NCBI GenBank assembly: GCA_964493145.1
Contig: CAZBMV010000001.1
Location: forward strand, 54,623-118,622
Direction: 5' to 3'
Length of the DNA: 64,000 nucleotides
Origin: an uncultured Candidatus Saccharibacteria bacterium
GTDB lineage: Bacteria; Patescibacteriota; Minisyncoccia; Phycocordibacterales; UBA918
Below are positions 3,325 through 62,913 of this stretch, in pieces. Position 1 is the first letter of the stretch, and the number at the start of each line of letters is the position of its first letter. The position numbers and the translations under genes are program-made. Below the pieces are notes generated by a model. It had not been told where the DNA came from. It saw only the letters and a list, made by a program, of their open reading frames with translations, and did no database searches.

Positions 3325-4107
3325 ATGCTCACATACATTTTCATAGCAACACTCAGCATTGCACTACTTTCCCTCGTTGGAAGTTTTTTCTTTAACACAA
3401 AAGACACCGCAAACAAAACGCACACCTTCGTCCTCCCCGTTGCGGTCGGCGTCTTTCTCGGTGTCGTTTTTTTTGAACTTCTCCCAGAGACGTACGAAGC
3501 TTCTCACGTGTGGGGCCCTGTTGCCATTGCGTGCGGCTTTTTCGGATTTTACATACTCTCGCACATGCTCCACACATTCCATCACCACCATGCACATGAT
3601 GAAGACTCGTGCGTGGGAACCGGTGGCAAGATGCTTCTCATTGGTGATGCAATCCACAACGTGGCCGACGGCGTCGTCATCGCATCTGCATTCATGGTAA
3701 ATCCACTTGCGGGTGTTGTGACAACGGTGGGCATAGCACTCCATGAAATTCCTCAAGAAATTGCAGAGTTTGGCGTGCTCCTCCGTTCGGGATACTCACG
3801 CCAGAAAGCGCGTGTGCTCAATTTCATATCGGCGACAAGCGTTTTTGTCGGTGCGCTTTTCACCTATTTTTTTGCACAAACCACTGAGGGATACGTCTTC
3901 GTCCTCACCGGTATAGCAGCCGGTAACCTTCTTTATATTGCATCCGCTGATCTCATTCCCGAACTTCGCGAATCACACAAAGAGCACTTCGCCGCGACAC
4001 TCGTTGCAACGCTCGCGGGATTCGTACTCATCGGCGGACTTATTTCATACACACACGAGAACTTGCCTGAATACGGTAATTCTTCGGAAGAATTCCACGA
4101 TTTATAG
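3325..4107 (+). CDS. zupT: ZIP-family zinc/metal transporter (ZupT-like)
   Basis: 260 aa polytopic protein with a His-rich loop (HHHHAHDED) and the ZIP motifs HNVADG and HEIPQEIAEFGVLL. Confidence 0.75.
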   Translation: MLTYIFIATLSIALLSLVGSFFFNTKDTANKTHTFVLPVAVGVFLGVVFFELLPETYEASHVWGPVAIACGFFGFYILSHMLHTFHHHHAHDEDSCVGTGGKMLLIGDAIHNVADGVVIASAFMVNPLAGVVTTVGIALHEIPQEIAEFGVLLRSGYSRQKARVLNFISATSVFVGALFTYFFAQTTEGYVFVLTGIAAGNLLYIASADLIPELRESHKEHFAATLVATLAGFVLIGGLISYTHENLPEYGNSSEEFHDL

Positions 4108-4613: not shown

Positions 4614-4755
4614 ATCGGTCATTACATGACCAGTATCCGTTCAGGATATTTTTGTTCGTCTGACGACTCCAAAACTATCTCTGAACAGCTTCGATTCGCG
4701 TTACGGCTTTTCTGTTTCGTTGTCACCTCACAGAAAACCCTACGCCCGGTAGCCG

Positions 4756-4888: not shown

Positions 4889-5503
4889 CTATTTCTTGAG
4901 TAGATACTTGAGCCAGACCGTTTTCTTTCCTGGGTTGGTCCAAGCATCTTGTTTGATGACTTTCAAATTATATTGCTGAAAAATTTCTTGCAACTTTTCT
5001 GGTTGCCAGTATGAGAAGAACCTCTGATACTCATACCCGTAATCATTTTCCACAACTACTTTTTCGTCGTCACCCTCTTTAAGAGCAATGTGGAGTATCC
5101 CGCTTGGTTTGAGTATGCGACAAATTTCACCAAAAACAAAATTGATTTTTTCTTTTGGAATATGGAGTAGCGACGCTTTTGCAAACACTCCATCAAAATA
5201 CTCGTCGGCATAAGGCAAGACGGAAAGCATATCTCCTTGCAGAAAAGTTGCTGATGGTAATTTCTCACGAGCAATCTTTAAGAGGCCTTCTGATAAATCA
5301 AACCCCTGTACATCAAAACCTCGGAGCGTGAGTTTCTTTGTTTCAACGCCAGGACCGCAACCTAAATCTAAAACTTTTGCATTTTGGAAAAGTGCTTCAC
5401 TAAAAAAGTCCACGAAGTCATTGTCCCAGCTATCGTTCTCGTGGTCCTTTGAGTAATCGCTGGCAATTTTGTTATATGTATCTGCAAGTATGTTCGTTTC
5501 CAT
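4889..5503 (-). CDS. class I SAM-dependent methyltransferase
   Basis: 204 aa with motif I VLDLGCGPG and the acidic post-I region; small-molecule MTase-like. Confidence 0.75.
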   Translation of the reverse strand: METNILADTYNKIASDYSKDHENDSWDNDFVDFFSEALFQNAKVLDLGCGPGVETKKLTLRGFDVQGFDLSEGLLKIAREKLPSATFLQGDMLSVLPYADEYFDGVFAKASLLHIPKEKINFVFGEICRILKPSGILHIALKEGDDEKVVVENDYGYEYQRFFSYWQPEKLQEIFQQYNLKVIKQDAWTNPGKKTVWLKYLLKK

Positions 5504-7009: not shown

Positions 7010-7059
7010 AGAACCAAAATGTCCCCTGTTTAGGGGATATTTTGGTTCTTTTTTTCTTT
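7010..7059 (+). terminator. strong plus-strand intrinsic terminator (11-bp outer + 6-bp inner stem, then TTTTTTCTTT)
   Basis: AGAACCAAAAT GTCCCCT GTTT AGGGGAT ATTTTGGTTCT TTTTTTCTTT. No plus-strand gene lies upstream. Confidence 0.45.
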
Positions 7060-7073
7060 AGGGCGGCTACCGG

Positions 7074-7163
7074 GTGAGAAAGTGCGGGGCACTTTTGCAA
7101 GAGGTTGTCGACAGTTTGAGGACACGAGAACTGTCATACAACCTGAACAGTTCCTGTAAGGAA
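7074..7163. ncRNA. structured repeat element, family 2, copy 1 (candidate small RNA / 3'-UTR element)
   Basis: GTGAGAAAGTGC-GGGG-GCACTTTTGCAAGAGGTTGTCGACAG...CTGTCATACAACCTGAACAG-TTC-CTGTAAGGAA. A second copy at 61283-61379 keeps the stems through compensatory changes. Confidence 0.35.
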
Positions 7164-7289
7164 TCGGCGTCCAACTCTAGTTCACTACGTTCACAAGAGT
7201 TACCTGCCCGCGGTTCGCTGGTTCGTCGCATTATGAGAGCGACTTACATCGCGAACCGTTCGATTCCGGACGCGAGCTCCGCTCGCTTA

Positions 7290-11071: not shown

Positions 11072-11291
11072 CAAAGAAAACCCGCTCTGTGGGTTTTTGA
11101 CTGGGCGCTAAGCACAGCACCTGCGTGCTGTGCGTGAGGGCTCGAAAAGAATTTGTATATTTTTTCTATACGAAATGAAAAAATACAAATTCTCGGGTAG
11201 AAAAAAGTTATGAACGTAGTGAATTACTTTTTGACACCGAGACCTCCACCGCCCACACATACAAAAAATCGCATCGGCGGTTTTTTGTTTT

Positions 11292-11314
11292 TGTGCCTCG
11301 ACCAGGAATCGAAC
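11292..11314 (-). repeat. 23-nt duplicate of the tRNA-Arg(TCT) 3' end (TGTGCCTCGACCAGGAATCGAAC)
   Basis: Identical to 11438-11460; lies 125 bp beyond the tRNA 3' end and itself sits inside a CCAGGAATCGAA...TTCGATTCCTGG inverted repeat. Confidence 0.55.
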
Positions 11315-11439
11315 ATTACATGTTCAGTACACCTTGTCGCTATTTTGTTTCCTTACGTCACAAAATAGCTGGCAAGGTCTTCGATTCCTGGACCCAATCA
11401 CAGAAAAACCGGCATGGAGCCGGTATTTTTGTGATTGTG

Positions 11440-11512
11440 TGCCTCGACCAGGAATCGAACCTGGAATAACGGCTTAGAAGTCCGCAGTTATATCCATTTA
11501 ACTATCGAGGCA
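11440..11512 (-). tRNA. tRNA-Arg (anticodon TCT), imperfect anticodon stem
   Basis: RC reads GCCTCGATAGTTAAATGGATATAACTGCGGACTTCTAAGCCGTTATTCCAGGTTCGATTCCTGGTCGAGGCA. Acceptor and T-arm are canonical; loop is CTTCTAA. Confidence 0.6.
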
Positions 11513-15573: not shown

Positions 15574-15660
15574 GGAAGGGTGACAGAGTGGTCGATTGTA
15601 CCTGTCTTGAAAACAGGAGTCTGGGAAACCGGACCGCGAGTTCGAATCTCGCCCCTTCCG
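15574..15660 (+). tRNA. tRNA-Ser (anticodon TGA), long variable arm
   Basis: GGAAGGGTGACAGAGTGGTCGATTGTACCTGTCTTGAAAACAGGAGTCTGGGAAACCGGACCGCGAGTTCGAATCTCGCCCCTTCCG. Confidence 0.85.
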
Positions 15661-15787
15661 CAAAACTAGAAAATTCAGGGTTCTTCCCTGGATTTTTTAG
15701 TTTCTGCGCAGGAGATTCGAAGCTGTTCAGAGATATTTTGGGAGTGATAGCGAACAAAAATATCCTGAACGGGTACTGAAACTGTAA

Positions 15788-15811
15788 GTTTCGAATCTCG
15801 CCCCTTCCGCC
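15788..15811 (+). repeat. near-identical (22/24) duplicate of the tRNA-Ser 3' end, ~130 bp downstream; followed by a terminator hairpin at 15821-15850
   Basis: GTTTCGAATCTCGCCCCTTCCGCC versus the tRNA 3' end AGTTCGAATCTCGCCCCTTCCGCA. Confidence 0.55.
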
Positions 15812-15909
15812 AAAATTGGAAAGCCCATATACGATATGTGGGCTTTTTAGTTTTTCACACTTCAACACAGAGAACAAAATTCACATAGACAGCGTGCTAC
15901 AATACACAC

Positions 15910-21022: not shown

Positions 21023-21203
21023 ATAGACATCTGCGGTGCCTGTGGTATAGTTTTGGTGCGCAGGAATGCGCTTTTTCATTTTCTTTTTTGTCTTTACAAA
21101 TTAGAATATAAACATGTTTGGTATATTTCCACACATCCGCCTTACAGGCGCTGTACACCTTTAGGGTATTTTTGTTCGTAAACTCCAATAATTCCACTAA
21201 AGG

Positions 21204-21232
21204 TCCGGAAAAGTGCCCCGCACTTTTCCGCC
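21204..21232. repeat. hairpin AAAAGTGC-CCC-GCACTTTT abutting the tRNA-Lys 5' end; same stem as the first hairpin of the 7074 element, inverted
   Basis: Seen directly. Confidence 0.4.
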
Positions 21233-21237
21233 CATAG

Positions 21238-21310
21238 CTCAGCCGGTAGAGCAGCTCCCTTTTAAGGAGAAGGTCCCAGGTTCGATCCCTGGTGGGCGGA
21301 CAAAATTTTT
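21238..21310 (+). tRNA. tRNA-Lys (anticodon TTT)
   Basis: CCGCCCATAGCTCAGCCGGTAGAGCAGCTCCCTTTTAAGGAGAAGGTCCCAGGTTCGATCCCTGGTGGGCGGA; loop CTTTTAA. Confidence 0.8.
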
Positions 21311-21447: not shown

Positions 21448-21549
21448 GTGGGCGGACAAGCGTTAAGAAACCCTGACCTTCGTCAGGGTTTTAGCTTGTC
21501 CGAGCCGCAGCGATGTTTTGCCGACCGCAAGGAAGCAAAACCGCGAGGC

Positions 21550-22022
21550 GGGGTCGCGAGTGCTTAGATAAATATTTATGAAATTAATATTTAACTTAGC
21601 AACTCGTGACGACAAGGTTTGTTTAGTACGCAAACCACTTTGCGTACGGCGCTTGTCCGAGCCGCAGCGATGTGGCCAGAAAATAACGAGCGTAGCGAAT
21701 ATATTTTCTGAGTCTGTCTTAAAATTCTATTCAAAATGAATTTTAAGACGAAAGCTGTCAAAAAGGCAAAACCGCGAGGCGGGGTCGCGAGTGCTTATGA
21801 GCGAAGCGAATTAGGAACAGCAGTCTGGGAGACTGCTGTTCCGTGACGACAACGCCATTGGGGTCGCGAGTGCTTAACGAACGCAGTGAGTTTAGGAATA
21901 ATAATCTGGGAGATTGTTATTCCGTGACGACAAGATTTGTTTAAGCGAGCTGGGGTCGCGAGTGCTTATGAGCGAAGCGAATTAGGAACAGCAGTCTGGG
22001 AGACTGCTGTTCCGTGACGACA
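21550..22022 (+). repeat. tandem array of four homologous ~66-74-nt structured units (21550-21615, 21781-21852, 21860-21933, 21952-22022)
   Basis: Each unit is GGGGTCGCGAGTGCTTA + variable region ending in a 12-13-bp hairpin + CGTGACGACA(A). Units 2 and 4 are identical; unit 3 keeps its hairpin through compensatory changes. Upstream partial repeats GCAAAACCGCGAGGC x2 and CTTGTCCGAGCCGCAGCGATGT x2. Confidence 0.6.
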
Positions 22023-22107
22023 GGACCAAAGAAGGTTTTGGCACAAAAAGTGATGTCTTTCGCATGGTGGCGAAAAGTGCTACATTTAACTCCATAATCT
22101 AACGTCT

Positions 22108-26993: not shown

Positions 26994-28649
26994 ATGCCCC
27001 AATTTGATGATTCTCTCACCAATGCCCGCCTCGCTTCGCTTCACCGTTCTGAGGAAGAGCGCCTCGTGGAAGCGCTCGCGCCAAAATACGGCTACCGGTA
27101 TGCCAATCTTGAGCGGACCCCCCTCAACGTAGAAGCACTCAAGTTGCTCTCTGAAGAGGAGTCACGAGGTGCGGAACTCGCGATCTTTGCCCGAACAAAC
27201 GAAAAGGTGTCTGTCGCAGTTCGCAACCCTCACAACCCCGACCTTCCCGTCGTTCTCAAAAAACTTGAGGGGATGGGGCTCACCCCAACCGTGTACCTCG
27301 TTTCGCTCCAGAGCGTACTCCACGCGTGGGACCGCTACCACGACGTTGATAGCGCAACCGCTGAGGTGCATGGTGTCCTTGATGTGAATCCGAAAAAAAT
27401 TAAACAAATCGCCGACACCGTCCACTCGTACCTTGATGTGGGCGGAATGGTTACCGCGATTGAAAAGGAGGGTTCTGTCACCCGTACGAGCAGTATCATT
27501 GAAATCGTGTTTGGAGGCGCACTCGCGCTCAACGCATCGGACATTCACATTGAACCTGAAAATCGTACGACGCGTATTCGGTATCGTCTGGACGGCGTCC
27601 TCTTTGACATCTGCGCCATTGAAAAGGGTACGTCGGCACAAATTCTTTCACGTCTGAAACTGCTCTCGGGTCTTAAGTTAAACAGACGGAAGGAATCTCA
27701 AGACGGACGCTTCACGTTTGACGTTGGGACGCGAAAGGTTGAAATTCGTTCCTCACTCATTCCGGGTGCGTACGGAGAATCCATGGTAATGCGCCTCCTT
27801 GACCCCGATGCATCCAGTTTTAAATTGGAGAACCTCGGTCTCAATGCAAAACTCCGCGACATCATTCTCAACGAACTCAGTCGTCCAAATGGCGCGCTCC
27901 TTACTACCGGACCAACCGGGTCGGGAAAGACAACCGCACTTTACTCGTTCCTCATGCACATCCACACGCCTGAACTTAAAATTCTCACCCTTGAGGATCC
28001 TGTTGAGTACAAACTTCCCGGTATTGTGCAGTCGCAGGTGAGCGATGAGTACTCGTTTGCGCAAGGTCTTCGTGCCATGCTCCGCCAAGACCCCGATGTC
28101 ATCCTCATCGGTGAAATTCGCGACCGTGAAGTGGCGGAAACCGCAATTCACGCCGCGCTCACGGGACACCTTGTCTTTTCCACGCTCCACACCAACAGCG
28201 CCGCAGGCGCATTCCCTCGCCTCGTTGATATCGGCGTTGACCCAAGTATGATCGCAAGCGCGGTCAATATCGTCCTCGGGCAACGTCTCGTTCGCCTCCT
28301 CTGTCCCGTGTGTAAAGTGGAGCGAGAAATGACAACTGAAGAACAGGCGCTCATACAACGGGTGCTCGGTGTTCCCGTTGCGATTCACACTGTCTTTGAT
28401 GCGGCGGGGTGTGATGCGTGCGGTATGAGTGGGTACAGGGGACGAGTGGGTGTCTTTGAAGCAATTCGCATTGATACCGCGGTTGAAAATGCCCTCGCAT
28501 CAGACCCGCGCGAACGTGTCATTCTTGAAGCAGCCAAATCTCAGGAGATCCCCACCATGCAACAGGATGCGCTCTATAAGGTGCTCGGCGGCATTACCTC
28601 ACTTGATGAGGCGTCGCGAGTACTTGACCTGTATCACATTGACGACTAG
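26994..28649 (+). CDS. pilB: type IV pilus/type II secretion assembly ATPase (GspE/PilB family)
   Basis: Walker A TTGPTGSGKTT, Asp box LRQDPDVILIGEIRD, His box GHLVFSTLHTN, Walker B, and a CPVCK...C..C tetracysteine. Confidence 0.85.
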   Translation: MPQFDDSLTNARLASLHRSEEERLVEALAPKYGYRYANLERTPLNVEALKLLSEEESRGAELAIFARTNEKVSVAVRNPHNPDLPVVLKKLEGMGLTPTVYLVSLQSVLHAWDRYHDVDSATAEVHGVLDVNPKKIKQIADTVHSYLDVGGMVTAIEKEGSVTRTSSIIEIVFGGALALNASDIHIEPENRTTRIRYRLDGVLFDICAIEKGTSAQILSRLKLLSGLKLNRRKESQDGRFTFDVGTRKVEIRSSLIPGAYGESMVMRLLDPDASSFKLENLGLNAKLRDIILNELSRPNGALLTTGPTGSGKTTALYSFLMHIHTPELKILTLEDPVEYKLPGIVQSQVSDEYSFAQGLRAMLRQDPDVILIGEIRDREVAETAIHAALTGHLVFSTLHTNSAAGAFPRLVDIGVDPSMIASAVNIVLGQRLVRLLCPVCKVEREMTTEEQALIQRVLGVPVAIHTVFDAAGCDACGMSGYRGRVGVFEAIRIDTAVENALASDPRERVILEAAKSQEIPTMQQDALYKVLGGITSLDEASRVLDLYHIDD

Positions 28650-28656
28650 AACACGT

Positions 28657-28760
28657 CCTGAATCCCCATATACTTCGGCGCGCTTCAATCAGAAACACTC
28701 ACCATATATGAAATATGCCTCGTATTTCCTCATTCGCGCTTCTTGTCTCTGGGGTTTCAG
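28657..28760 (+). ncRNA. structured repeat element, family 1, copy A (3' of pilB)
   Basis: Outer stem CTGAATCCCCA/TGGGGTTTCAG around a conserved core (CTTCAATCAGAAACACTCACCATATATGAAATATGCCTCGTATTTCCTCATTCG). Homologous copies at 31913-32029 and 61080-61207. Confidence 0.4.
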
Positions 28761-28805
28761 ACCATGCTCTTGTGGTCAATTTAAAATTTCTAGATATACG
28801 TCATC

Positions 28806-28835
28806 AAAAACCATTCGTTTAAACGAATGGTTTTT
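28806..28835. terminator. intrinsic terminator AAAAACCATTCG-TTTAAA-CGAATGGTTTTT
   Basis: Seen directly. Confidence 0.6.
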
Positions 28836-29205
28836 GCTATGCAACTTGTGTTTGGGTAGGTCAAGGAGACGAGGTGGTGGGGTCATGCTATATTCCCTAC
28901 ATCGTGAGTTACGATACTCACTGTTCCTCACATTGAGCGTATAACCCTTGACGCAATAGCTTCCGTAAGAAGTGACACTCCAAAATTAAGGTATGCTCCA
29001 GTGGTCTCATTCAAAGATGAGCACCAAAGCACCCTCATCTTGAGTACCAAGTATTGCGTAAAGGGTTATCAGTTCAATGACCCTGTTTTTTACTCTCTAA
29101 AAAAGAAAACATTCGGAGTCCCGAATGCAATGAACGATACGCCCACATTGTAGCATACCGACATTTTTTGTCAATCCCCTCCCTTTAGGGGGTTTTTCGG
29201 ATACA

Positions 29206-30198
29206 ATGGTGACTATGAGCGACCAAAAAACTTCATACGAACGTGATACCGCTGGAAATCTTGATCAAACACTTCGTCCGCACACCTGGGATGAGTACGT
29301 CGGACAAGCAAAAACGAAGGAGAACCTGCGCATTCTCCTTACCGCGGCACGTGAGCGCGGTCATGCGGCCGAGCACATTCTTCTCTACGGTCCACCGGGG
29401 CTTGGAAAGACGACGCTCGCCCATCTCATTTCACGAACACTCGGAACGAACATGCGCACAACTTCCGGTCCCGCGATTGAGCGCGTTGGTGATCTCGCCG
29501 CAATTCTCACAAACCTCTCTCCCGGTGACGTACTCTTTATTGATGAAATACACCGACTCAGTAAATCAATTGAGGAGGTGCTCTACCCCGCAATGGAATC
29601 CGGTGTTTTGGATATCATCATCGGCAAGGGACCTTCGGCACGCACGGTGCAACTGGATCTCCCTCCATTCACGCTCGTTGCGGCGACGACGCGAATTTCG
29701 CTCATTTCTTCGCCTCTTCGTTCACGTTTTTCTGGAGGAACGTTTCGCTTGGAGTTTTATTCCGATGACGAAATCGCGCGCATTCTCAAACGTTCAGCGG
29801 AACTCCTCAACGTTCGCGTTGCAGATCCTCTTCTCCTCCACATCGCGAGACGCTGTCGGGCAACACCGCGTACGGCAAACTATCTTTTGAAACGGTGCCG
29901 CGACCTCGCGCAACTTGAAACGTGTGATGTAAATGACGCTATCATTGAAAAAACGTTTGACCTTCTTGAGATTGATTCGCTCGGACTCACGAAGCAAGAC
30001 CGATCCCTCCTCTCACTCCTCATCACAAAGTTTGGTGGAGGTCCTGTAGGGCTCAACACTATGGCGGCGGCGACGGGAGAAGAGATGGCGACAATAGAAG
30101 ACGTTTTTGAGCCATACCTCATTCGGCAGGGACTCATAGAACGAACACCTCGTGGTCGTGTTGCGACAACTGTCGCGTACGAACACATAGAAAAATAG
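29206..30198 (+). CDS. ruvB: Holliday junction DNA helicase RuvB
   Basis: LRPHTWDEYVGQ, Walker A GPPGLGKTTLA, Walker B VLFIDEIHRL, sensor TTR...SPLRSRF. Confidence 0.9.
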   Translation: MVTMSDQKTSYERDTAGNLDQTLRPHTWDEYVGQAKTKENLRILLTAARERGHAAEHILLYGPPGLGKTTLAHLISRTLGTNMRTTSGPAIERVGDLAAILTNLSPGDVLFIDEIHRLSKSIEEVLYPAMESGVLDIIIGKGPSARTVQLDLPPFTLVAATTRISLISSPLRSRFSGGTFRLEFYSDDEIARILKRSAELLNVRVADPLLLHIARRCRATPRTANYLLKRCRDLAQLETCDVNDAIIEKTFDLLEIDSLGLTKQDRSLLSLLITKFGGGPVGLNTMAAATGEEMATIEDVFEPYLIRQGLIERTPRGRVATTVAYEHIEK

Positions 30199-31540: not shown

Positions 31541-31912
31541 TTGCAGAATGGGCAAAGTTTTGATACAAAAGACCCTAATAAAAAGTTAAGTAAAAAATTG
31601 AATCATATGATCCTTTTTGTCGCCACCAATTATGCAGCCCGTCATGATGATGAGGAAGAAAATGAAAATGAAGACGAGGTGGAAACTGCGGATATTGATG
31701 ATGAGCTTTTGAGTGAACTTGCTGATGATGAAATAGGTGATGATCTTCTTGATGAAGAAATTGATCCTCTCCTTAAGGAAAGTGAGTTCCCACCCAACGA
31801 AGAAACGCCGGAGGGTGTTGTTGATGACGAAGCGAAGCCGTTTGTTGACGATGAAGAAGACGATGAGGAAGATATGGACTATGATTCGTTTGACGACCAC
31901 GACGAACTATAA
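31541..31912 (+). CDS. highly acidic small protein (Asp/Glu ~50% of the C-terminal 90 aa)
   Basis: DDEEENENEDEVETADIDDELLSELADDEIGDDLLDEE...; could start at MILFVATNYAAR. DNA-mimic-like or anti-sigma-like composition. Confidence 0.5.
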   Translation: MQNGQSFDTKDPNKKLSKKLNHMILFVATNYAARHDDEEENENEDEVETADIDDELLSELADDEIGDDLLDEEIDPLLKESEFPPNEETPEGVVDDEAKPFVDDEEDDEEDMDYDSFDDHDEL

Positions 31913-32029
31913 ACTTTTTAAAACAATCTCATACTTTGTTGTCCTTCAATCGGAAACGCTCATCGTATATTGAATACGCCTCGCATTTCCTCATTCGGAC
32001 GCCTCGTCTGAACTTGTTTTGAAAAAGTT
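31913..32029 (+). ncRNA. structured repeat element, family 1, copy B
   Basis: Outer stem ACTTTTAAAACAA/TTGTTTTGAAAAAGT; core CTTCAATCGGAAACGCTCATCGTATATTGAATACGCCTCGCATTTCCTCATTCGG. Confidence 0.4.
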
Positions 32030-32051
32030 TAATAAACCTTTTCAAGGAAAC

Positions 32052-32084
32052 AAAACCGCCGGCATGAAGTGCCGGCGGTTTTGT
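32052..32084. terminator. bidirectional intrinsic terminator AAAACCGCCGGCA-TGAAG-TGCCGGCGGTTTT, 3' of tyrS
   Basis: Seen directly. Confidence 0.65.
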
Positions 32085-40079: not shown

Positions 40080-40108
40080 AAATTTAGAAATACAAAAACC
40101 AACACTTT

Positions 40109-40142
40109 TATATTATAATTCCCCATGGGGAATTATAATATA
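40109..40142. repeat. perfect 34-bp palindrome TATATTATAATTCCCCATGGGGAATTATAATATA (copy 1; dyad extends to 40105-40146)
   Basis: Exact copies at 40758-40791 and 53597-53630, each with its own extra dyad-symmetric flanks. Confidence 0.8.
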
Positions 40143-40154
40143 AAAGTGTAATGT

Positions 40155-40724
40155 ATGGAGAAAAAGGAAAAAAAGAATGAGAGAATAAAACTGGGACCAA
40201 TTGGTGAAGCAATACTCGGAGTGGTTGCGGTTACAGGCATGGTTACTGTTTTTGCGGTATTCCCTGGTGTGACAACAGTTATCGCCCCCTTTTTAAAAAA
40301 GAAAAAATACTCACCAAAGCAAGCGATTGAAAGAAATATTAACTCACTCATCAAAAAAGGAGTTCTCAAAAAAGTAACTGACTCATCAGGAAACGAAAAA
40401 CTTGAACTCACAAAACGAGGACGATGGGAGGCCGCTCTCCGGTTTACTTCTCAAGATAGAAAGCAAACAAAATGGGATGGAGTTTGGAGAGTGGTGATAT
40501 TTGACGTACCACAATCAAAAGCAAAAGAACGAGGAGAACTTCGCAGGGCAATGCGTTTTTTCGGATTCAAACTTCTTCAAAAAAGCGTGTGGGTATATCC
40601 TTTTGCATGTGATGACTTCATTACACTTCTCAAAGATCATTTCGGTGTCTCGCGCGATGTTCTCTATATGAAAGTGTCACACATTGAAAACGACAAGCAT
40701 CTTAGGAGAGAGTTTGGTTTGTAA
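40155..40724 (+). CDS. membrane-anchored PaaX-family-like regulator (TM helix + wHTH-like + PaaX_C-like domain)
   Basis: TM helix IGEAILGVVAVTGMVTVFAVF; LIKKGVLKKVTDSSGNEKLELTKRG resembles the PaaX wHTH wing; TKWDGVWRVVIFDVPQSKAKERGELRRAMRFFGFKLLQKSVWVYP resembles the PaaX WDGxW...GFG core. Bracketed by the 34-bp palindromes. Confidence 0.45.
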   Translation: MEKKEKKNERIKLGPIGEAILGVVAVTGMVTVFAVFPGVTTVIAPFLKKKKYSPKQAIERNINSLIKKGVLKKVTDSSGNEKLELTKRGRWEAALRFTSQDRKQTKWDGVWRVVIFDVPQSKAKERGELRRAMRFFGFKLLQKSVWVYPFACDDFITLLKDHFGVSRDVLYMKVSHIENDKHLRREFGL

Positions 40725-40757
40725 ATAAGCCAGCGCAACTTATTTTGTAACACAACT

Positions 40758-40791
40758 TATATTATAATTCCCCATGGGGAATTATAATATA
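40758..40791. repeat. perfect 34-bp palindrome, copy 2 (dyad extends to 40751-40798)
   Basis: CACAACTTA-[core]-TAAGTTGTG. Confidence 0.8.
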
Positions 40792-40844
40792 AGTTGTGTT
40801 CAACGGGAGCATTGGAACAATAGGTATGATTGTTTGAAAACAAG

Positions 40845-53585: not shown

Positions 53586-53639
53586 TTCCGCCGCTTATAT
53601 TATAATTCCCCATGGGGAATTATAATATAAGCGGCGGAA
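53586..53639. repeat. 54-nt perfect palindrome containing the third copy of the 34-bp core; abuts the pcrA stop, ~50 nt upstream of the ksgA start
   Basis: TTCCGCCGCTTA-[34-bp core]-TAAGCGGCGGAA. Confidence 0.8.
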
Positions 53640-59651: not shown

Positions 59652-59910
59652 CATGGAGCAGGTTCCGAGGCGACCTGAACAAAACGTCTCAAACAACACG
59701 CCCGAATGGTGGAATCACTTTCACCCTTCGGGCTTTTTCTTTTTGGGCACGTATACCATAAGTTCCGATCGGAACTTATGGTATAAATATTTTTTGTGGA
59801 ATCTTAAGTGCAAACCGTTACACGTCCCGCGTATCCTACGCACACCCGTATGTCTATTGACGGTAATATATAAATTTGCTACACTTTATATACAGTAAAT
59901 TCATATATTT

Positions 59911-61079: not shown

Positions 61080-61207
61080 TCTAGAACTCATTTCAAACCC
61101 CATCTGCTTTGTTGCGTTCGTCGCTCAAACACTCATCGTATATTGAATACGCCTCGTGTTCTCGCTTCTCCGCGTCTCGCATCTTAGGTTTTGAAATGAG
61201 TTCTAGG
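61080..61207 (+). ncRNA. structured repeat element, family 1, copy C
   Basis: 20-bp outer inverted repeat TCTAGAACTCATTTCAAACC/GGTTTTGAAATGAGTTCTAG around the core CTCAAACACTCATCGTATATTGAATACGCCTCG. Confidence 0.4.
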
Positions 61208-61282
61208 TCTTCATTCTGAAGCTGGGCGCTTCAAGCACGTGTGACTCTTTCAGTGCATCGGATTCTTCAAGGTCGGCTATCG

Positions 61283-61379
61283 TGAGAAAGTCCGGGGGAC
61301 TTTCGCAAGAGGTTGTCGACAAATTTTGGTTTGTGTAAACCAAAATTTGTCATACAACCTGAACAGGTTCTGTAAGAAA
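61283..61379. ncRNA. structured repeat element, family 2, copy 2
   Basis: GTGAGAAAGTCC-GGGG-GGACTTTCGCAAGAGGTTGTCGACAA-[hairpin AATTTTGGTTT-GTGTA-AACCAAAATTT]-GTCATACAACCTGAACAG-GTT-CTGTAAGAAA. Outer stem GGTCGGCTATC/GATAGCCGACC overlaps the comM stop. Confidence 0.4.
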
Positions 61380-61389
61380 GATAGCCGAC

Positions 61390-62913
61390 CTATGTTTTGG
61401 CGCGATAGTGGAGTGCTTCAAGAACGTGCGCTTCCTTGAGGTCGGGCGAATCGTCCAAGTCAGCGATTGTCTGCGAAACTTTAATGAGGCGATGGTAACT
61501 TCGCGGGGAGAGTCCAAGTTTTTCTGCTGAGCGCTTGAGAAGGTCGCGAACCGCGGGTGTCATGTGCACGCGTTCATCAATATCACGTGACGACATTTCT
61601 CCGTTTGCGTTGATGCCACTTCCCCTGAATCGCTCGTACTGGCGTTTGCGCGCGTGCATGATTTGTTCACGTGCACGGTCAGTTTCACCACGAGTTCCAG
61701 GAGAGGATACCCTCTTTTCCGTGAGCGTATTGTAGTCAACGTGCGGTACCGAGAGCCAGAGATCAATACGGTCAAGAATTGGCCCGGAAATTTTGTGCTT
61801 GTACGTTTGGAGCATCTGTTGCGTGTAGTCGCCGCGCTCATCGCCACCGCGAGTTGGGTTCATTGCCGCGACGAGAATAAAATCTGCGGGAAAAAGTGCG
61901 CTCGCCTGAACACGAGAAATGGACACGACCCTGTCCTCAAGCGGTTGACGGAGCGCATCTATCGCACGTCGCTCAAATTCGGGAAACTCATCCAGAAAGA
62001 GCACCCCCTTATGGGCGAGGGTCACCTCTCCCGGACGCGGGTGCGTACCGCCACCGACGAGCGCGGTGTATGACGCGGTGTGATGTGGTGCACGAAAGGG
62101 CGGGCAGAGTGAAACGCTCTCCCCAGTTCCTGCAACCGAGTGAATGGAAGTCACCTCGAGCGCCTCTTCGCGCGTGAGTGGCGGAAGAATTCCTCGGAGT
62201 GCTCTCGCGAGCATCGTCTTCCCCGTCCCCGGTGGACCGACCATGATGACGTTGTGCCTCCCGGCGGCAGCGATCATAAGTCCGCGCTTCGCAGACTCTT
62301 GCCCGCGAACGTCTTCAAGACGGACGGCACTTTCACTCCAGAGTGTCTCAATTTGGGTTGGTGGTATTTCGGGTATGCGTGCGTGATCATCACGCGTCGT
62401 ATCAATGTGCCTGATAACCTCGGTGAGCGTGCGCGCAGGCGTGATGCGTATTCCTGAAATGAGTGCCGCCTCCTCTCTGTTCTCATAGGGGACAACGACT
62501 TCGGAAAAGTGTGCGGATAGCGCTTTGCGCACAATGGGGAGGACACCGCGTACCGGGCGGAGTGTACCATCAAGGGAGAGTTCACCAATGAAGCAGATAC
62601 TTGAGACATCGGCGCGCAGTTCTTCTTTCGCCATGAGGTACGAAATCGCAATGGGCAAATCAAAGAGAGGACCTTCCTTCTTGAGGTCTGCGGGAGCGAG
62701 CGAAATAACCACTTTGTGATTCTCGCCCTTTGGTGCGGAGAAGCCGGAATTCTTAAGGGCGCTGTTCACCCTGTCGCGCGCTTCCTCCACCGCCTTCCCC
62801 GGAAGACCGACAATGGTAAACGCAAACAGACCTCGCGAGAGGTCTGTCTCCACCGTAACGATGTCGGCGCTCGTGAGCGAAGGCTGTGCGGAGTGAACAC
62901 GTGCGATCGCCAT
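61390..62913 (-). CDS. comM: YifB/ComM-family Mg-chelatase-like AAA+ ATPase
   Basis: N-terminal Lon-protease-like region, Walker A GPPGTGKTMLA, and a C-terminal Mg-chelatase subunit ChlI-like domain. Confidence 0.8.
   Translation of the reverse strand: MAIARVHSAQPSLTSADIVTVETDLSRGLFAFTIVGLPGKAVEEARDRVNSALKNSGFSAPKGENHKVVISLAPADLKKEGPLFDLPIAISYLMAKEELRADVSSICFIGELSLDGTLRPVRGVLPIVRKALSAHFSEVVVPYENREEAALISGIRITPARTLTEVIRHIDTTRDDHARIPEIPPTQIETLWSESAVRLEDVRGQESAKRGLMIAAAGRHNVIMVGPPGTGKTMLARALRGILPPLTREEALEVTSIHSVAGTGESVSLCPPFRAPHHTASYTALVGGGTHPRPGEVTLAHKGVLFLDEFPEFERRAIDALRQPLEDRVVSISRVQASALFPADFILVAAMNPTRGGDERGDYTQQMLQTYKHKISGPILDRIDLWLSVPHVDYNTLTEKRVSSPGTRGETDRAREQIMHARKRQYERFRGSGINANGEMSSRDIDERVHMTPAVRDLLKRSAEKLGLSPRSYHRLIKVSQTIADLDDSPDLKEAHVLEALHYRAKT

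What the first reader, a model, noticed from the sequence alone, without database searches (positions are those of the whole stretch)
31913..32029. Family-1 structured element: three copies directly 3' of plus-strand genes, with covarying stems
- Copies lie at 28657-28760 (after pilB), 31913-32029 (after the acidic protein gene) and 61080-61207 (after the AAA ATPase gene). Each starts 1-30 nt after a stop codon.
- They share a ~55-nt core, ...CAATC(A/G)GAAAC(A/G)CTCA(C/T)C(A/G)TATAT(G/T)AA(A/T)A(T/C)GCCTCG...TTCCTCATTCG.
- An internal hairpin covaries: CGTAT-attga-ATACG in copies B and C versus CATAT-atgaa-ATATG in copy A.
- Each copy is enclosed by a different 11-20-bp inverted repeat (CTGAATCCCCA/TGGGGTTTCAG; ACTTTTAAAACAA/TTGTTTTGAAAAAGT; TCTAGAACTCATTTCAAACC/GGTTTTGAAATGAGTTCTAG).
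- A conserved core inside non-conserved but always-pairing outer stems is the signature of a selected RNA structure, or of a MITE with terminal inverted repeats.
Basis: seen in the sequence. Interest (0 to 1): 0.65.

Follow-up and report, generated by a model that had tools for sequence, protein, structure and literature searches.

The report
Structured palindromic repeat of CPR bacteria
A hairpin-forming repeat of about 125 bases occurs three times here and dozens of times in other ultra-small (CPR) bacterial genomes; it keeps its fold on one strand only, is gained and lost exactly at gene ends, and matches no catalogued RNA family.

Summary
The three copies are real, but each is longer than reported: A 28648-28770, B 31910-32032, C 61081-61207. 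An exhaustive covariance-model search finds no fourth copy in the window. Pattern scans recovered about 40 more copies, all from Patescibacteria (CPR) MAGs and metagenomes. None came from phage or plasmid collections, and Rfam 15 has no match.

In 36 distinct copies, 94% of pair cells are paired and 26 of 37 pairs show double compensatory changes. The fold is strand-specific, with G-U 107 against A-C 9.

The terminal CUA of the folded strand supplies the stop codon of a convergent gene in 18 of 38 copies. Orthologous sites in relatives are filled or empty without any change in protein length, so the element is gained and lost. Unlike a typical MITE, the apical core is conserved in sequence while the outer arms vary but keep pairing.

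Best reading: a Correia/ERIC-like mobile palindrome kept as a single-stranded, probably RNA, rod-shaped module. Target-site duplication, a transposase and transcription of the folding strand are not shown. A new variant of a known kind.

The parts
28648..28770 (-). Copy A (type 1): complete hairpin element. Its folded-strand 3' end overlaps the TAG stop codon of pilB.
   Evidence: R1 129 bits and R2 117 bits on the minus strand, against 19 bits on the plus strand. Minus-strand MFE is -39.2 kcal/mol (z -5.5) against -28.2 on the plus strand. Sequence.
31910..32032 (-). Copy B (type 1), the copy named in the finding: complete hairpin element. Its end overlaps the TAA stop codon of the acidic-protein gene.
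   Evidence: R1 130 bits and R2 119 bits on the minus strand, against 16 bits on the plus strand. MFE is -38.6 (z -5.9) against -29.6. The orthologous site is empty in L043, L044/45, L046 and L047.
61081..61207 (-). Copy C (type 2 subtype): complete hairpin element, 27 nt beyond the TGA of the AAA_14/DUF4143 ATPase gene, flanked CTAG...CTAG.
   Evidence: R1 105 bits and R2 116 bits on the minus strand. MFE is -54.1 (z -10.1) against -41.1. It groups with L018, L021, L024-27, L037 and L042 in alignment A3.
31952..31990 (-). Apical module of copy B: P4 (8 bp), a 4x4 GA-rich internal loop (GAGG / AUGA on the folded strand), and P5 (CGUAU/AUACG) with a 5-nt loop. This is the most sequence-conserved part of the family.
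   Evidence: Invariant columns in A2/A3. P5 pairs are 100% paired and P4 pairs 91%. Apical identity between paralogs is 0.74-1.00, against 0.34-0.92 for the outer stem.
28647..28649 (+). TAG stop codon of pilB, formed by the complement of the element's terminal CUA.
   Evidence: ORF 26994-28649. The same register occurs in 11 other family members.
31910..31912 (+). TAA stop codon of the acidic-protein gene, lying inside the outer stem of copy B.
   Evidence: ORF 31541-31912. The C-terminus ...DHDEL has the same length in relatives with an empty site.
28808..28836 (.). Context, not part of the element: a bidirectional terminator-like hairpin between copy A and the convergent ncRNA candidate.
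   Evidence: Sequence. In relatives with an empty site, a hairpin of this kind follows the pilB stop codon directly.
32052..32080 (.). Context, not part of the element: a bidirectional GC-rich terminator hairpin between copy B and the end of tyrS.
   Evidence: Sequence. It is retained in L043 and L044, where the element is absent.

Best explanation
This is a dispersed, non-coding, imperfect palindrome of about 125 nt that is specific to CPR/Patescibacteria genomes of the Paceibacteria type.

Origin: it behaves like a miniature mobile element. It is gained and lost at orthologous gene ends, and it lands exactly on the stop codon. Its terminal ...GCUCUA supplies a TAG on the opposite strand, so the protein is not lengthened.

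Maintenance: after insertion it is kept under selection as a single-stranded, rod-like hairpin on one fixed strand, which in this window is the minus strand. The outer ~18-bp stem drifts by compensatory changes that pass through G-U intermediates. The apical module stays conserved in sequence; it comprises P3-P5, two or three tandem G.A motifs and the GAGG/AUGA loop.

Most likely mechanism (inferred): the folding strand acts as RNA. Transcription that runs towards the 3' end of the abutted gene would produce the rod. Possible sources are read-through of the convergent unit or weak local initiation. The rod would then serve as a barrier or processing site, and the apical GA-rich module as a docking site for a host factor. 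In most family members the architecture is A-tract, stem, U-tract.

Shown here: existence, fold, folding strand, position on stop codons, presence/absence polymorphism, and a core that is more conserved than the arms. Inferred: that the acting molecule is RNA rather than ssDNA, the function, and the mode of mobility.
For: Family and hosts: 17 loci come from 10 CPR MAGs and 25 from metagenome contigs. Several copies occur per genome.

Fold: 94.0% of pair cells are paired against 77.2% in shuffles. 26 of 37 pairs and 216 cells have changes on both sides (0 of 500 shuffles reach this). Slid controls give 33-49%.

Strand: G-U/U-G 107 against A-C/C-A 9. This holds in every class of neighbouring-gene orientation. 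The minus-strand fold is better in 20 of 20 copies.

Stop-codon docking: in 18 of 38 copies a convergent ORF ends in the terminal CUA. 13 of these stops are TAG, and 11 sit in the identical register. The background share of TAG is about 35%.

Mobility: site B is filled only in the window. Site A is filled in the window and L047, degenerate in L043, and empty in L044 and L046. Synteny and protein C-terminus length are unchanged.

Constraint after insertion: the inner part is more conserved than the outer stem in 92% of pairs. Orthologous copies are 90-93% identical where flanking DNA is 53-94%.

The element is not coding and matches no known RNA family.
Against: No consistent promoter lies upstream on the folding strand. 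The only hint is a weak enrichment of -10-like hexamers, 14/34 against 8.4+-2.4.

At copies A and B a canonical terminator stands between the convergent unit and the element. Minus-strand RNA would therefore need read-through.

In about 10 copies the element is antisense to both neighbouring genes.

A U-tract is weak or absent in window copy A and in most type-2 copies.

A TA target-site duplication is not demonstrable. The distal flank is TA in about 13 of 38 copies, which is close to base composition.

No transposase is known or was found in the window.

The strongly conserved core has no identified partner.
Confidence: 0.5

Rival explanations
1. The element is a selfish hairpin that acts as single-stranded DNA, in the manner of REPIN/RAYT, IS200/IS605 PATEs or attC. 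One strand must fold to be recognised by a recombinase or transposase. The strand-specific pairing and the conserved core would then be requirements of its own mobilisation, not of a host RNA function.
For: The folding strand is intrinsic to the element and independent of neighbouring transcription. No promoter was found. Presence/absence polymorphism exists. Cores are homogeneous within a genome and differ between genomes, as in REPIN populations described in bioRxiv 10.1101/2021.07.10.451892. As with attC, the folded strand is the one opposite to the upstream ORF. Only one flank (the CUA side) is conserved, as for elements that insert next to a fixed target without duplicating it.
Against: Arms diverge much faster than the core while still pairing. 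That implies selection acting in place after insertion, which a birth-and-death process does not predict. The three window copies share one orientation although they lie on both sides of the dnaA/dnaN region. The attC R boxes and the REP GTAG motif are absent (sequence). No candidate enzyme has been identified.
Confidence: 0.2
2. The copies are a family of stand-alone small RNA genes, paralogous and trans-acting. Each would be transcribed from its own promoter, and the apical GA-rich module would bind or sequester a conserved protein.
For: The fold is strand-specific with strong covariation. Each copy keeps a sequence-conserved core. -10-like hexamers are weakly enriched 4-8 nt upstream of the stem. 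Copy A has a TTGATG-17-TTAAAT sequence 8 nt upstream (sequence).
Against: No promoter is conserved at orthologous copies. The apparently conserved upstream motif (AAAACC..TAYAAT) turned out to be an extra copy of the element's own arm. The copies are gained and lost at orthologous sites. No 3' terminator lies beyond the hairpin.
Confidence: 0.15
3. One reading: a 3' UTR structure of the upstream plus-strand genes (pilB, the acidic-protein gene, the AAA ATPase gene) that acts in cis on those mRNAs.
For: The element lies between the stop codon and the terminator of those genes, so the plus-strand version is certainly transcribed. The plus strand still folds better than shuffled sequence, with z from -3.7 to -6.8.
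Against: On the plus strand the 107 G-U pairs become A-C mismatches. Compensatory pathways always pass through G-U on the minus strand. The CM scores 15-19 bits on the plus strand against 115-119 on the minus strand. A quarter to a third of family members are oriented the other way relative to their neighbours.
Confidence: 0.05
4. The copies are ordinary intrinsic terminators or chance palindromes that only look related.
For: The elements sit at gene ends. Most family members have an A-tract and a U-tract flanking a GC-rich stem segment. In L004 and L020 the element is the only sequence between two convergent genes.
Against: A conserved inner part of about 80 nt is shared across more than 40 loci with E-values down to 1e-32. 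Separate canonical terminators stand next to copies A and B. Sites that lack the element keep those terminators.
Confidence: 0.03

Closest known systems
Correia repeat enclosed elements (CREE/NEMIS) of Neisseria
   Same: Both are imperfect palindromes of 105-155 nt at gene ends. Both are co-transcribed and fold as long RNA hairpins. Both have a CAAAAAC / GTTTTTG tract in the arms. Two co-linear subterminal patches look alike: TCAG(G)ACAAGGCG and GGCAACGCnGTA. The two-arm local alignment score has z 4.3-4.9 against dinucleotide shuffles, and only in one orientation. The general properties of Correia elements (TA duplication, RNase III processing, IHF site) are from my own knowledge plus PMC5039591.
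   Different: Profile tests fail. nhmmer with the whole family, or with either arm, finds no Correia copy at E<=10-100 in 181 kb of Neisseria DNA, and the CM does not find one either. The termini differ (AGAGCGTGG against TATAGTGGATTAA). The central parts are unrelated. In Correia the TIRs are the conserved part; here it is the core. The hosts are unrelated phyla. TA duplication is not shown here.
ERIC / REP-BIME / REPIN intergenic palindromes of proteobacteria
   Same: These are also short, non-coding, dispersed palindromes in transcribed intergenic spacers, often right after stop codons. They are conserved across species, act as RNA hairpins, and show site-by-site presence/absence (my own knowledge; REPIN biology in bioRxiv 10.1101/2021.07.10.451892).
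   Different: There is no sequence similarity. No RAYT gene is known here. REPs are 20-40 nt and carry a GTAG motif. Strand-specific selection and a conserved apical module with variable arms are not typical features of those families.
Integron attC sites
   Same: attC sites are imperfect palindromes of 57-141 nt directly 3' of an ORF and often overlapping its stop codon. Structure is conserved more than sequence. The strand that folds is the one complementary to the ORF (my own knowledge), as found here.
   Different: The R''/R' boxes (RYYYAAC/GTTRRRY) are absent. In attC the ends are conserved and the middle varies, the reverse of this family. There are no cassette arrays and no integrase, and the flanking genes are syntenic housekeeping genes.
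Bidirectional intrinsic terminators
   Same: Both sit between convergent genes. Most family members have an A-tract, a GC-rich stem and a U-tract.
   Different: The hairpin is about 55 bp long with conserved internal loops and a conserved core. A U-tract is missing in several copies. Canonical terminators coexist with copies A and B.

Membership tests
MITE (miniature inverted-repeat transposable element) | Short, non-coding, multi-copy and dispersed | tested here: met
   The element is about 125 nt, and the only reading frames inside it are short and not conserved. There are 3 copies in the window and more than 40 copies at different loci in at least 10 MAGs.
MITE (miniature inverted-repeat transposable element) | Terminal inverted repeats conserved among copies (transposase binding sites) | tested here: inconclusive
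   The arms always pair. Their sequence is conserved in some genomes (AGAGCGTGGTCAAAAAC...; stem identity 0.87-0.92 in CAZNWG01). It has drifted to 0.34-0.54 in the window genome, and the arms are less conserved than the core in 92% of pairs.
MITE (miniature inverted-repeat transposable element) | Target-site duplication flanking each copy | tested here: inconclusive
   The gene-side flank is TA in most copies, but there it is part of a stop codon. The distal flank is TA in only about 13 of 38 copies, close to base composition. Copies B and C have TA on both sides; copy A has TA and TT.
MITE (miniature inverted-repeat transposable element) | Filled and empty orthologous sites | tested here: met
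   Site B is filled in the window and empty in L043, L044/45, L046 and L047. Site A is filled in the window and L047, degenerate in L043, and empty in L044 and L046.
MITE (miniature inverted-repeat transposable element) | A related autonomous element that encodes the transposase | not tested
   No transposase was found among the 20 flanking or window proteins scanned. Whole genomes were not available.
Correia element (CREE) of Neisseria | 26-bp TIR TATAGTGGATTAACAAAAA(C/T)C(G/A)G(T/G)AC and detectable overall sequence homology | tested here: not met
   nhmmer and the CM give no hit on real Correia copies. Only two ~12-nt subterminal patches are similar, with z 4.3-4.9 in pairwise shuffles.
Integron attC site | R''/L''...L'/R' boxes (RYYYAAC ... 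GTTRRRY) at the ends, cassette arrays and an integrase | tested here: not met
   The arms carry CAAAAAC/GTTTTTG inside the stem, not R boxes at the ends. The neighbours are syntenic core genes.
Integron attC site | The folded strand is the one opposite to the upstream ORF | tested here: met
   G-U 107 against A-C 9 on the strand antisense to the abutted ORF. The ORF abuts the 3' end of the folded strand in 18 of 38 copies, against about 4 at the 5' end.
Any Rfam 15 RNA family | A match to a curated covariance model | tested here: not met
   At gathering thresholds the window yields only 8 tRNAs. At E<=10 on 28600-29220, no hit covers the element.
Structured functional RNA (general) | Covariation supporting one strand-specific fold | tested here: met
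   A phylogeny-aware test (R-scape) was not available.
Structured functional RNA (general) | Evidence that the folding strand is transcribed | not testable with these tools
   No expression data were available. Promoter scans are weak or negative.
Intrinsic terminator | GC-rich stem followed directly by a U-tract | tested here: inconclusive
   GGUUUUUG follows the inner stem in most type-1 copies. It is absent in window copy A and in most type-2 copies. The scan tool cannot score such long hairpins.
TIGR arrays (Tas-associated guide RNAs of CPR and phages) | Tandem arrays of ~36-nt units with edge and loop repeats (UG...CCA) next to a Nop-domain gene | tested here: not met
   The copies are solitary and 125 nt long, they are not in arrays, and no Nop-domain gene is adjacent. 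The description of TIGR arrays is from PMC12045711.

The most novel reading that the evidence does not exclude
The element is not just a decaying transposon. It would be a CPR-specific functional module, a rod-like RNA (or ssDNA) whose conserved tandem-G.A apical domain is the ligand of a conserved host factor. It would be placed on the stop codons of genes, on the opposite strand, to guard or process gene 3' ends in these very compact genomes. That would make it a new class of non-coding element absent from Rfam.
Probability: 0.3. Interest if true: 0.7.

Novelty: new variant of a known kind. Interest (0 to 1): 0.55.

Why it matters
CPR/Patescibacteria genomes are tiny, largely uncultured and thought to be poor in repeats and regulatory RNA. 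This family is widespread in them and has covariation as strong as that of accepted RNA families. It has an unambiguous folding strand, and it lies base-for-base against stop codons.

If it acts as RNA, it is one of the first lineage-specific structured RNAs of this radiation, and it offers a way to find the unknown factor that reads its GA-rich core. If it acts as ssDNA, it points to an unrecognised mobilisation system in CPR.

The model built here can also be used to annotate these elements. That would avoid mis-called small ORFs and misplaced gene ends in CPR MAGs.

Tried and rejected
- **Rfam:** searches at gathering thresholds and at E<=10 give nothing on the element.
- **Coding:** a mini-ORF in the core (AUG CGA GGC GUA UUC AAU AUA CGA UGA, after GAGGAAA) loses its start codon in many copies, so the core is not coding.
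- **Own promoter:** the apparently conserved upstream motif AAAACC..TAYAAT is really a third copy of the element's arm. The statistical signal for -10 boxes is weak, and the window copies have no convincing promoter.
- **Core inserted into pre-existing terminators:** this would explain the different arms, but it is rejected because the arms of different loci are visibly homologous (AGAG-YRTG-NTCAAAARC).
- **Correia homology:** the lead from memory was checked against real Neisseria copies. Pairwise similarity is suggestive, but profile and CM tests are negative, so homology is not claimed.
- **attC, REP/RAYT and TIGR-Tas:** their defining motifs or architecture are absent.
- **K-turn:** the P4/P5 loop is a symmetric 4x4 loop with tandem G.A and lacks the 3-nt bulge (read from the sequence).
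- **DGR-type adenine mutagenesis as the source of arm variability:** the variable positions are not adenine-specific.
- **Replication-strand explanation:** the three window copies share one orientation on both sides of dnaA/dnaN. With n = 3 this is weak.
- **Phage or plasmid origin:** no hits in IMG/VR, INPHARED or PLSDB.
- **Source contig:** the look-up of the window's own PilB failed because the protein is not on record.
- **Taxonomic labels:** a check of the 'Saccharibacteria' MAG labels by protein comparison was uninformative. The labels are quoted as deposited.

Full report
**1. The observation**

The three stretches are present as described. By blastn, A and B share 54 nt at 85%, B and C share 30 nt at 97%, and A and C share 31 nt at 84%. 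A profile built from the three finds nothing else in the window above noise. An exhaustive covariance-model search of all 64 kb with filters off gives three hits of 115-119 bits. Every other hit is 24 bits or less and is a plain 50-60-nt hairpin that scores equally on both strands.

The elements are longer than reported. Alignment with relatives shows that pairing continues outwards to the stop codon. The corrected spans are A 28648-28770, B 31910-32032 and C 61081-61207. The pilB TAG and the acidic-protein TAA lie inside the outer stem.

**2. The element is widespread and confined to CPR bacteria**

A 30-nt degenerate pattern from the core matched 17 places in the species-representative genome set. 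All are in MAGs labelled Candidatus Kaiserbacteria, Candidatus Saccharibacteria or 'bacterium', with up to five hits per MAG. A second pattern matched 25 metagenome contigs. The same pattern matched no IMG/VR viral contig. blastn against phage and plasmid collections gave no match.

The window is a CPR chromosome segment that includes dnaA and dnaN. Named homologues of its PilB are annotated as Paceibacterota, Pacebacteria or Minisyncoccia. Rfam 15 has no match, either at gathering thresholds or at E<=10.

**3. Structure and strand**

RNAalifold on 19 copies predicts one long hairpin of 37 pairs, and 25 of these pairs show compensatory double changes. The count on the 36 distinct rows of a 43-copy, model-based alignment gives:

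- 94.0% of cells paired, against 77.2+-0.6% in shuffles.
- 26 pairs and 216 cells changed on both sides; 0 of 500 shuffles reach this.
- 33-49% of cells paired when partners are slid by 1-3 columns.

That alignment was fitted to the model. The independent MAFFT/alifold result agrees with it.

The layout on the folding strand is as follows:

- An outer stem of about 18 bp (AGAGCGUGGUCAAAAACC.../...GGUUUUUGGACAUGCUCU).
- A conserved internal loop (ACAAGGCG / CAACGCAGUA).
- P3.
- A stretch of tandem G.A pairs.
- P4 (8 bp).
- A symmetric GAGG/AUGA loop.
- P5 (CGUAU/AUACG) closed by a variable 5-nt loop.

There are two subtypes. Window copies A and B are type 1 and copy C is type 2.

The fold belongs to one strand. 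All 20 copies first examined fold 8-20 kcal/mol better on the strand that is the window minus strand. In paired cells there are 107 G-U/U-G against 9 A-C/C-A. Variable pairs run A-U, G-U, G-C or U-A, U-G, C-G, and never pass through A-C. This holds whatever the orientation of the neighbouring genes. The folding strand is therefore antisense to pilB, to the acidic-protein gene and to the ATPase gene.

**4. Position**

In 18 of 38 distinct copies, a convergent open reading frame of at least 70 codons ends in the last bases of the folded strand. The stop codon is TAG in 13 of them, and 11 of those sit in exactly the same register; the TAG is the complement of the terminal CUA. Among long ORFs of these loci, TAG makes up about 35% of stop codons. 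Only about four credible cases have a gene ending at the other end of the element.

The abutted genes are unrelated to each other: PilB, PilC, MurJ, NDK, an SLT transglycosylase, a phosphoribosyltransferase and a DUF285 protein.

Neighbour orientations (5' side/3' side, relative to the folded strand) are same/opposite 10, opposite/opposite 10, same/same 5 and opposite/same 5. In L004 and L020 the element fills essentially the whole spacer between two convergent genes.

**5. Gain and loss**

Four relatives keep the gene order PolA-TsaE-...-PilB-RuvB-YebC-RuvC-acidic protein-TyrS. Their PilB identity to the window is 81% (L043), 74% (L044/45), 70% (L047) and 69% (L046).

- **Site B (acidic protein/TyrS).** In the three relatives that keep the acidic-protein gene and tyrS adjacent (L043, L044/45, L047), this spacer is only 43-68 nt and holds just the terminator; in L046 two genes lie between them and the first spacer is 32 nt. 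No copy of the element is found at this site in any of the four relatives.
- **Site A (after pilB).** L047 has a full copy (117 bits), here with a TGA stop codon. L043 has an 85-nt hairpin with the family's terminal sequence (CTAGAGTATG...) but without the core. L044 and L046 have nothing but a terminator.

PilB and the acidic protein end at the same residue position where filled and empty sites can be compared, except that PilB of L046 is a few residues longer. Insertion therefore occurs at the stop codon itself.

A TA target-site duplication cannot be shown. The base before the stem on the distal side is T in only about a third of copies.

**6. Constraint after insertion**

The inner part is more conserved than the outer stem in 92% of all pairs. 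For paralogs within one MAG the values are 0.93-0.98 against 0.66-0.82. In the window they are 0.63-0.75 against 0.34-0.54.

Orthologous copies are 90-93% identical where flanking DNA is 81-94% identical in one pair and 53-87% in the other. L016 and L023, which are orthologous, differ by a C-G to U-A double change in P3.

This is the opposite of a MITE whose terminal repeats are kept for its transposase. It argues that something reads the core.

**7. Transcription**

I found no consistent promoter on the folding strand. -10-like hexamers 4-8 nt upstream of the stem are weakly enriched, at 14/34 against 8.4+-2.4 in shuffles, with 21 of 1000 shuffles reaching 14. The window copies have nothing convincing.

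A motif that looked conserved upstream (AAAACC..TAYAAT) is in fact an extra copy of the element's arm, present in several loci.

At copies A and B a canonical bidirectional terminator lies between the convergent transcription unit and the element. RNA of the folding strand would therefore come from read-through or from weak initiation. This is the main gap in the RNA model, and the reason the ssDNA rival stays alive.

**8. Comparison with known systems**

The nearest kinds are the intergenic palindromic repeats: Correia/NEMIS, ERIC and REP/REPIN.

I recalled a resemblance to Correia ends and tested it on real Neisseria copies taken from prophage contigs. Two subterminal patches, TCAG(G)ACAAGGCG and GGCAACGCnGTA, line up in the right order and orientation. 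The two-arm alignment score is 4.3-4.9 sd above shuffles. However, profile HMMs of the whole family or of either arm, and the CM, do not find Correia copies. I therefore do not claim homology.

attC sites share the position and the choice of the strand opposite to the ORF, but not the defining boxes or the genomic context. TIGR arrays, which occur in CPR, are unrelated in architecture.

**9. Verdict**

The element is both a selected single-strand structure and a unit that is gained and lost, but it folds on the other strand than assumed, and it is not a textbook MITE.

I rate the possibilities as follows:

| Explanation | Confidence |
|---|---|
| Correia/ERIC-like mobile palindrome retained as a strand-specific, probably RNA, module | 0.5 |
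| ssDNA-acting selfish hairpin | 0.2 |
| Autonomous small RNA gene family | 0.15 |
| Plus-strand 3' UTR element | 0.05 |
| Ordinary terminator or chance palindrome | 0.03 |

Novelty: a new variant of a known kind. Interest: 0.55.

Noticed in passing
window 28800-29145 (minus strand), between pilB and ruvB: A conserved candidate ncRNA of about 340 nt. It has a strong promoter-like site (TTGACA-16-TACAAT with TG, 29174-29147), a 5' hairpin followed by a U-run, a long ~150-nt rod, and a terminator at 28836-28808. It is conserved in L043, L044, L046 and L047, with 16 pairs showing compensatory changes in 5 sequences. Rfam has no match at E<=10.
   Followed up: partly
window 40107-40144, 40756-40793, 53594-53631 (and a diverged copy at 59750-59787): A 38-nt perfect palindrome, CTTATATTATAATTCCCCATGGGGAATTATAATATAAG, occurs in 3-4 copies. 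Two of them bracket the PaaX/Cas2-like-domain gene at 40155-40724.
   Followed up: no
window 7040-7200 and 61248-61408: A second repeat family of about 110 nt, 81% identical overall with 91-93% blocks. It contains a hairpin (GAGAAAGTGCGGGGCACTTT) and the motifs GTTGTCGACA and TGTCATACAACCTGAACAG. One copy lies directly between copy C and the ComM-like gene.
   Followed up: partly
window 15574-15822 (+) and 11281-11511 (-); related piece at 4622-4659 and 21142-21179: Two different tRNA genes show the same arrangement. Each is followed by a terminator hairpin, then a shared ~70-nt segment (..TCGAAG..TATTTTG..AAAATA..GTACTGAA..TGTAA), then a duplicate of that tRNA's own 3' end about 147 nt downstream. 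This looks like att-site remnants of a tiny element that targets tRNA 3' ends.
   Followed up: partly
window 21528-22025: A cluster of direct repeats lies just downstream of the tRNA at 21228-21300. The units are 39-78 nt and spaced 81-231 nt apart, and they contain GCGAGGCGGGGTCGCGAGTGCTTA and a hairpin TTAGGAACAGCAGTCTGGGAGACTGCTGTTCC.
   Followed up: no
L001 ~5222-5262, L007 ~1745-1790, L013 ~205-260, L017 ~3650-3690, L047 6290-6315: Several family members carry an additional copy of one arm, similar to the 5' arm (CTAGAGCATRTCCAAAAAC..CATAC), 7-40 nt upstream of the hairpin on the folding strand. The 3' arm therefore has two possible partners. This could be a remnant of nested insertions or an alternative pairing.
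   Followed up: partly
L043 5700-5960: At the orthologous pilB site, the 81%-identical relative has a core-less 85-nt hairpin with the family's termini. It also has a fragment of the core (AATATTCGCCTCGC) and two similar small hairpins (CCCCACCGCAGAGCGGATGGGG and CCCCGCGAAGTCCGTGGGG). The spacer after pilB appears to be a hot spot for small repeats.
   Followed up: no
L001 1203-1290: A further diverged half-copy of the element, with covarying P4 (GGAAGU/ACUUCC) and P5 (CGUAC/GUACG), lies next to a masked run of N.
   Followed up: no
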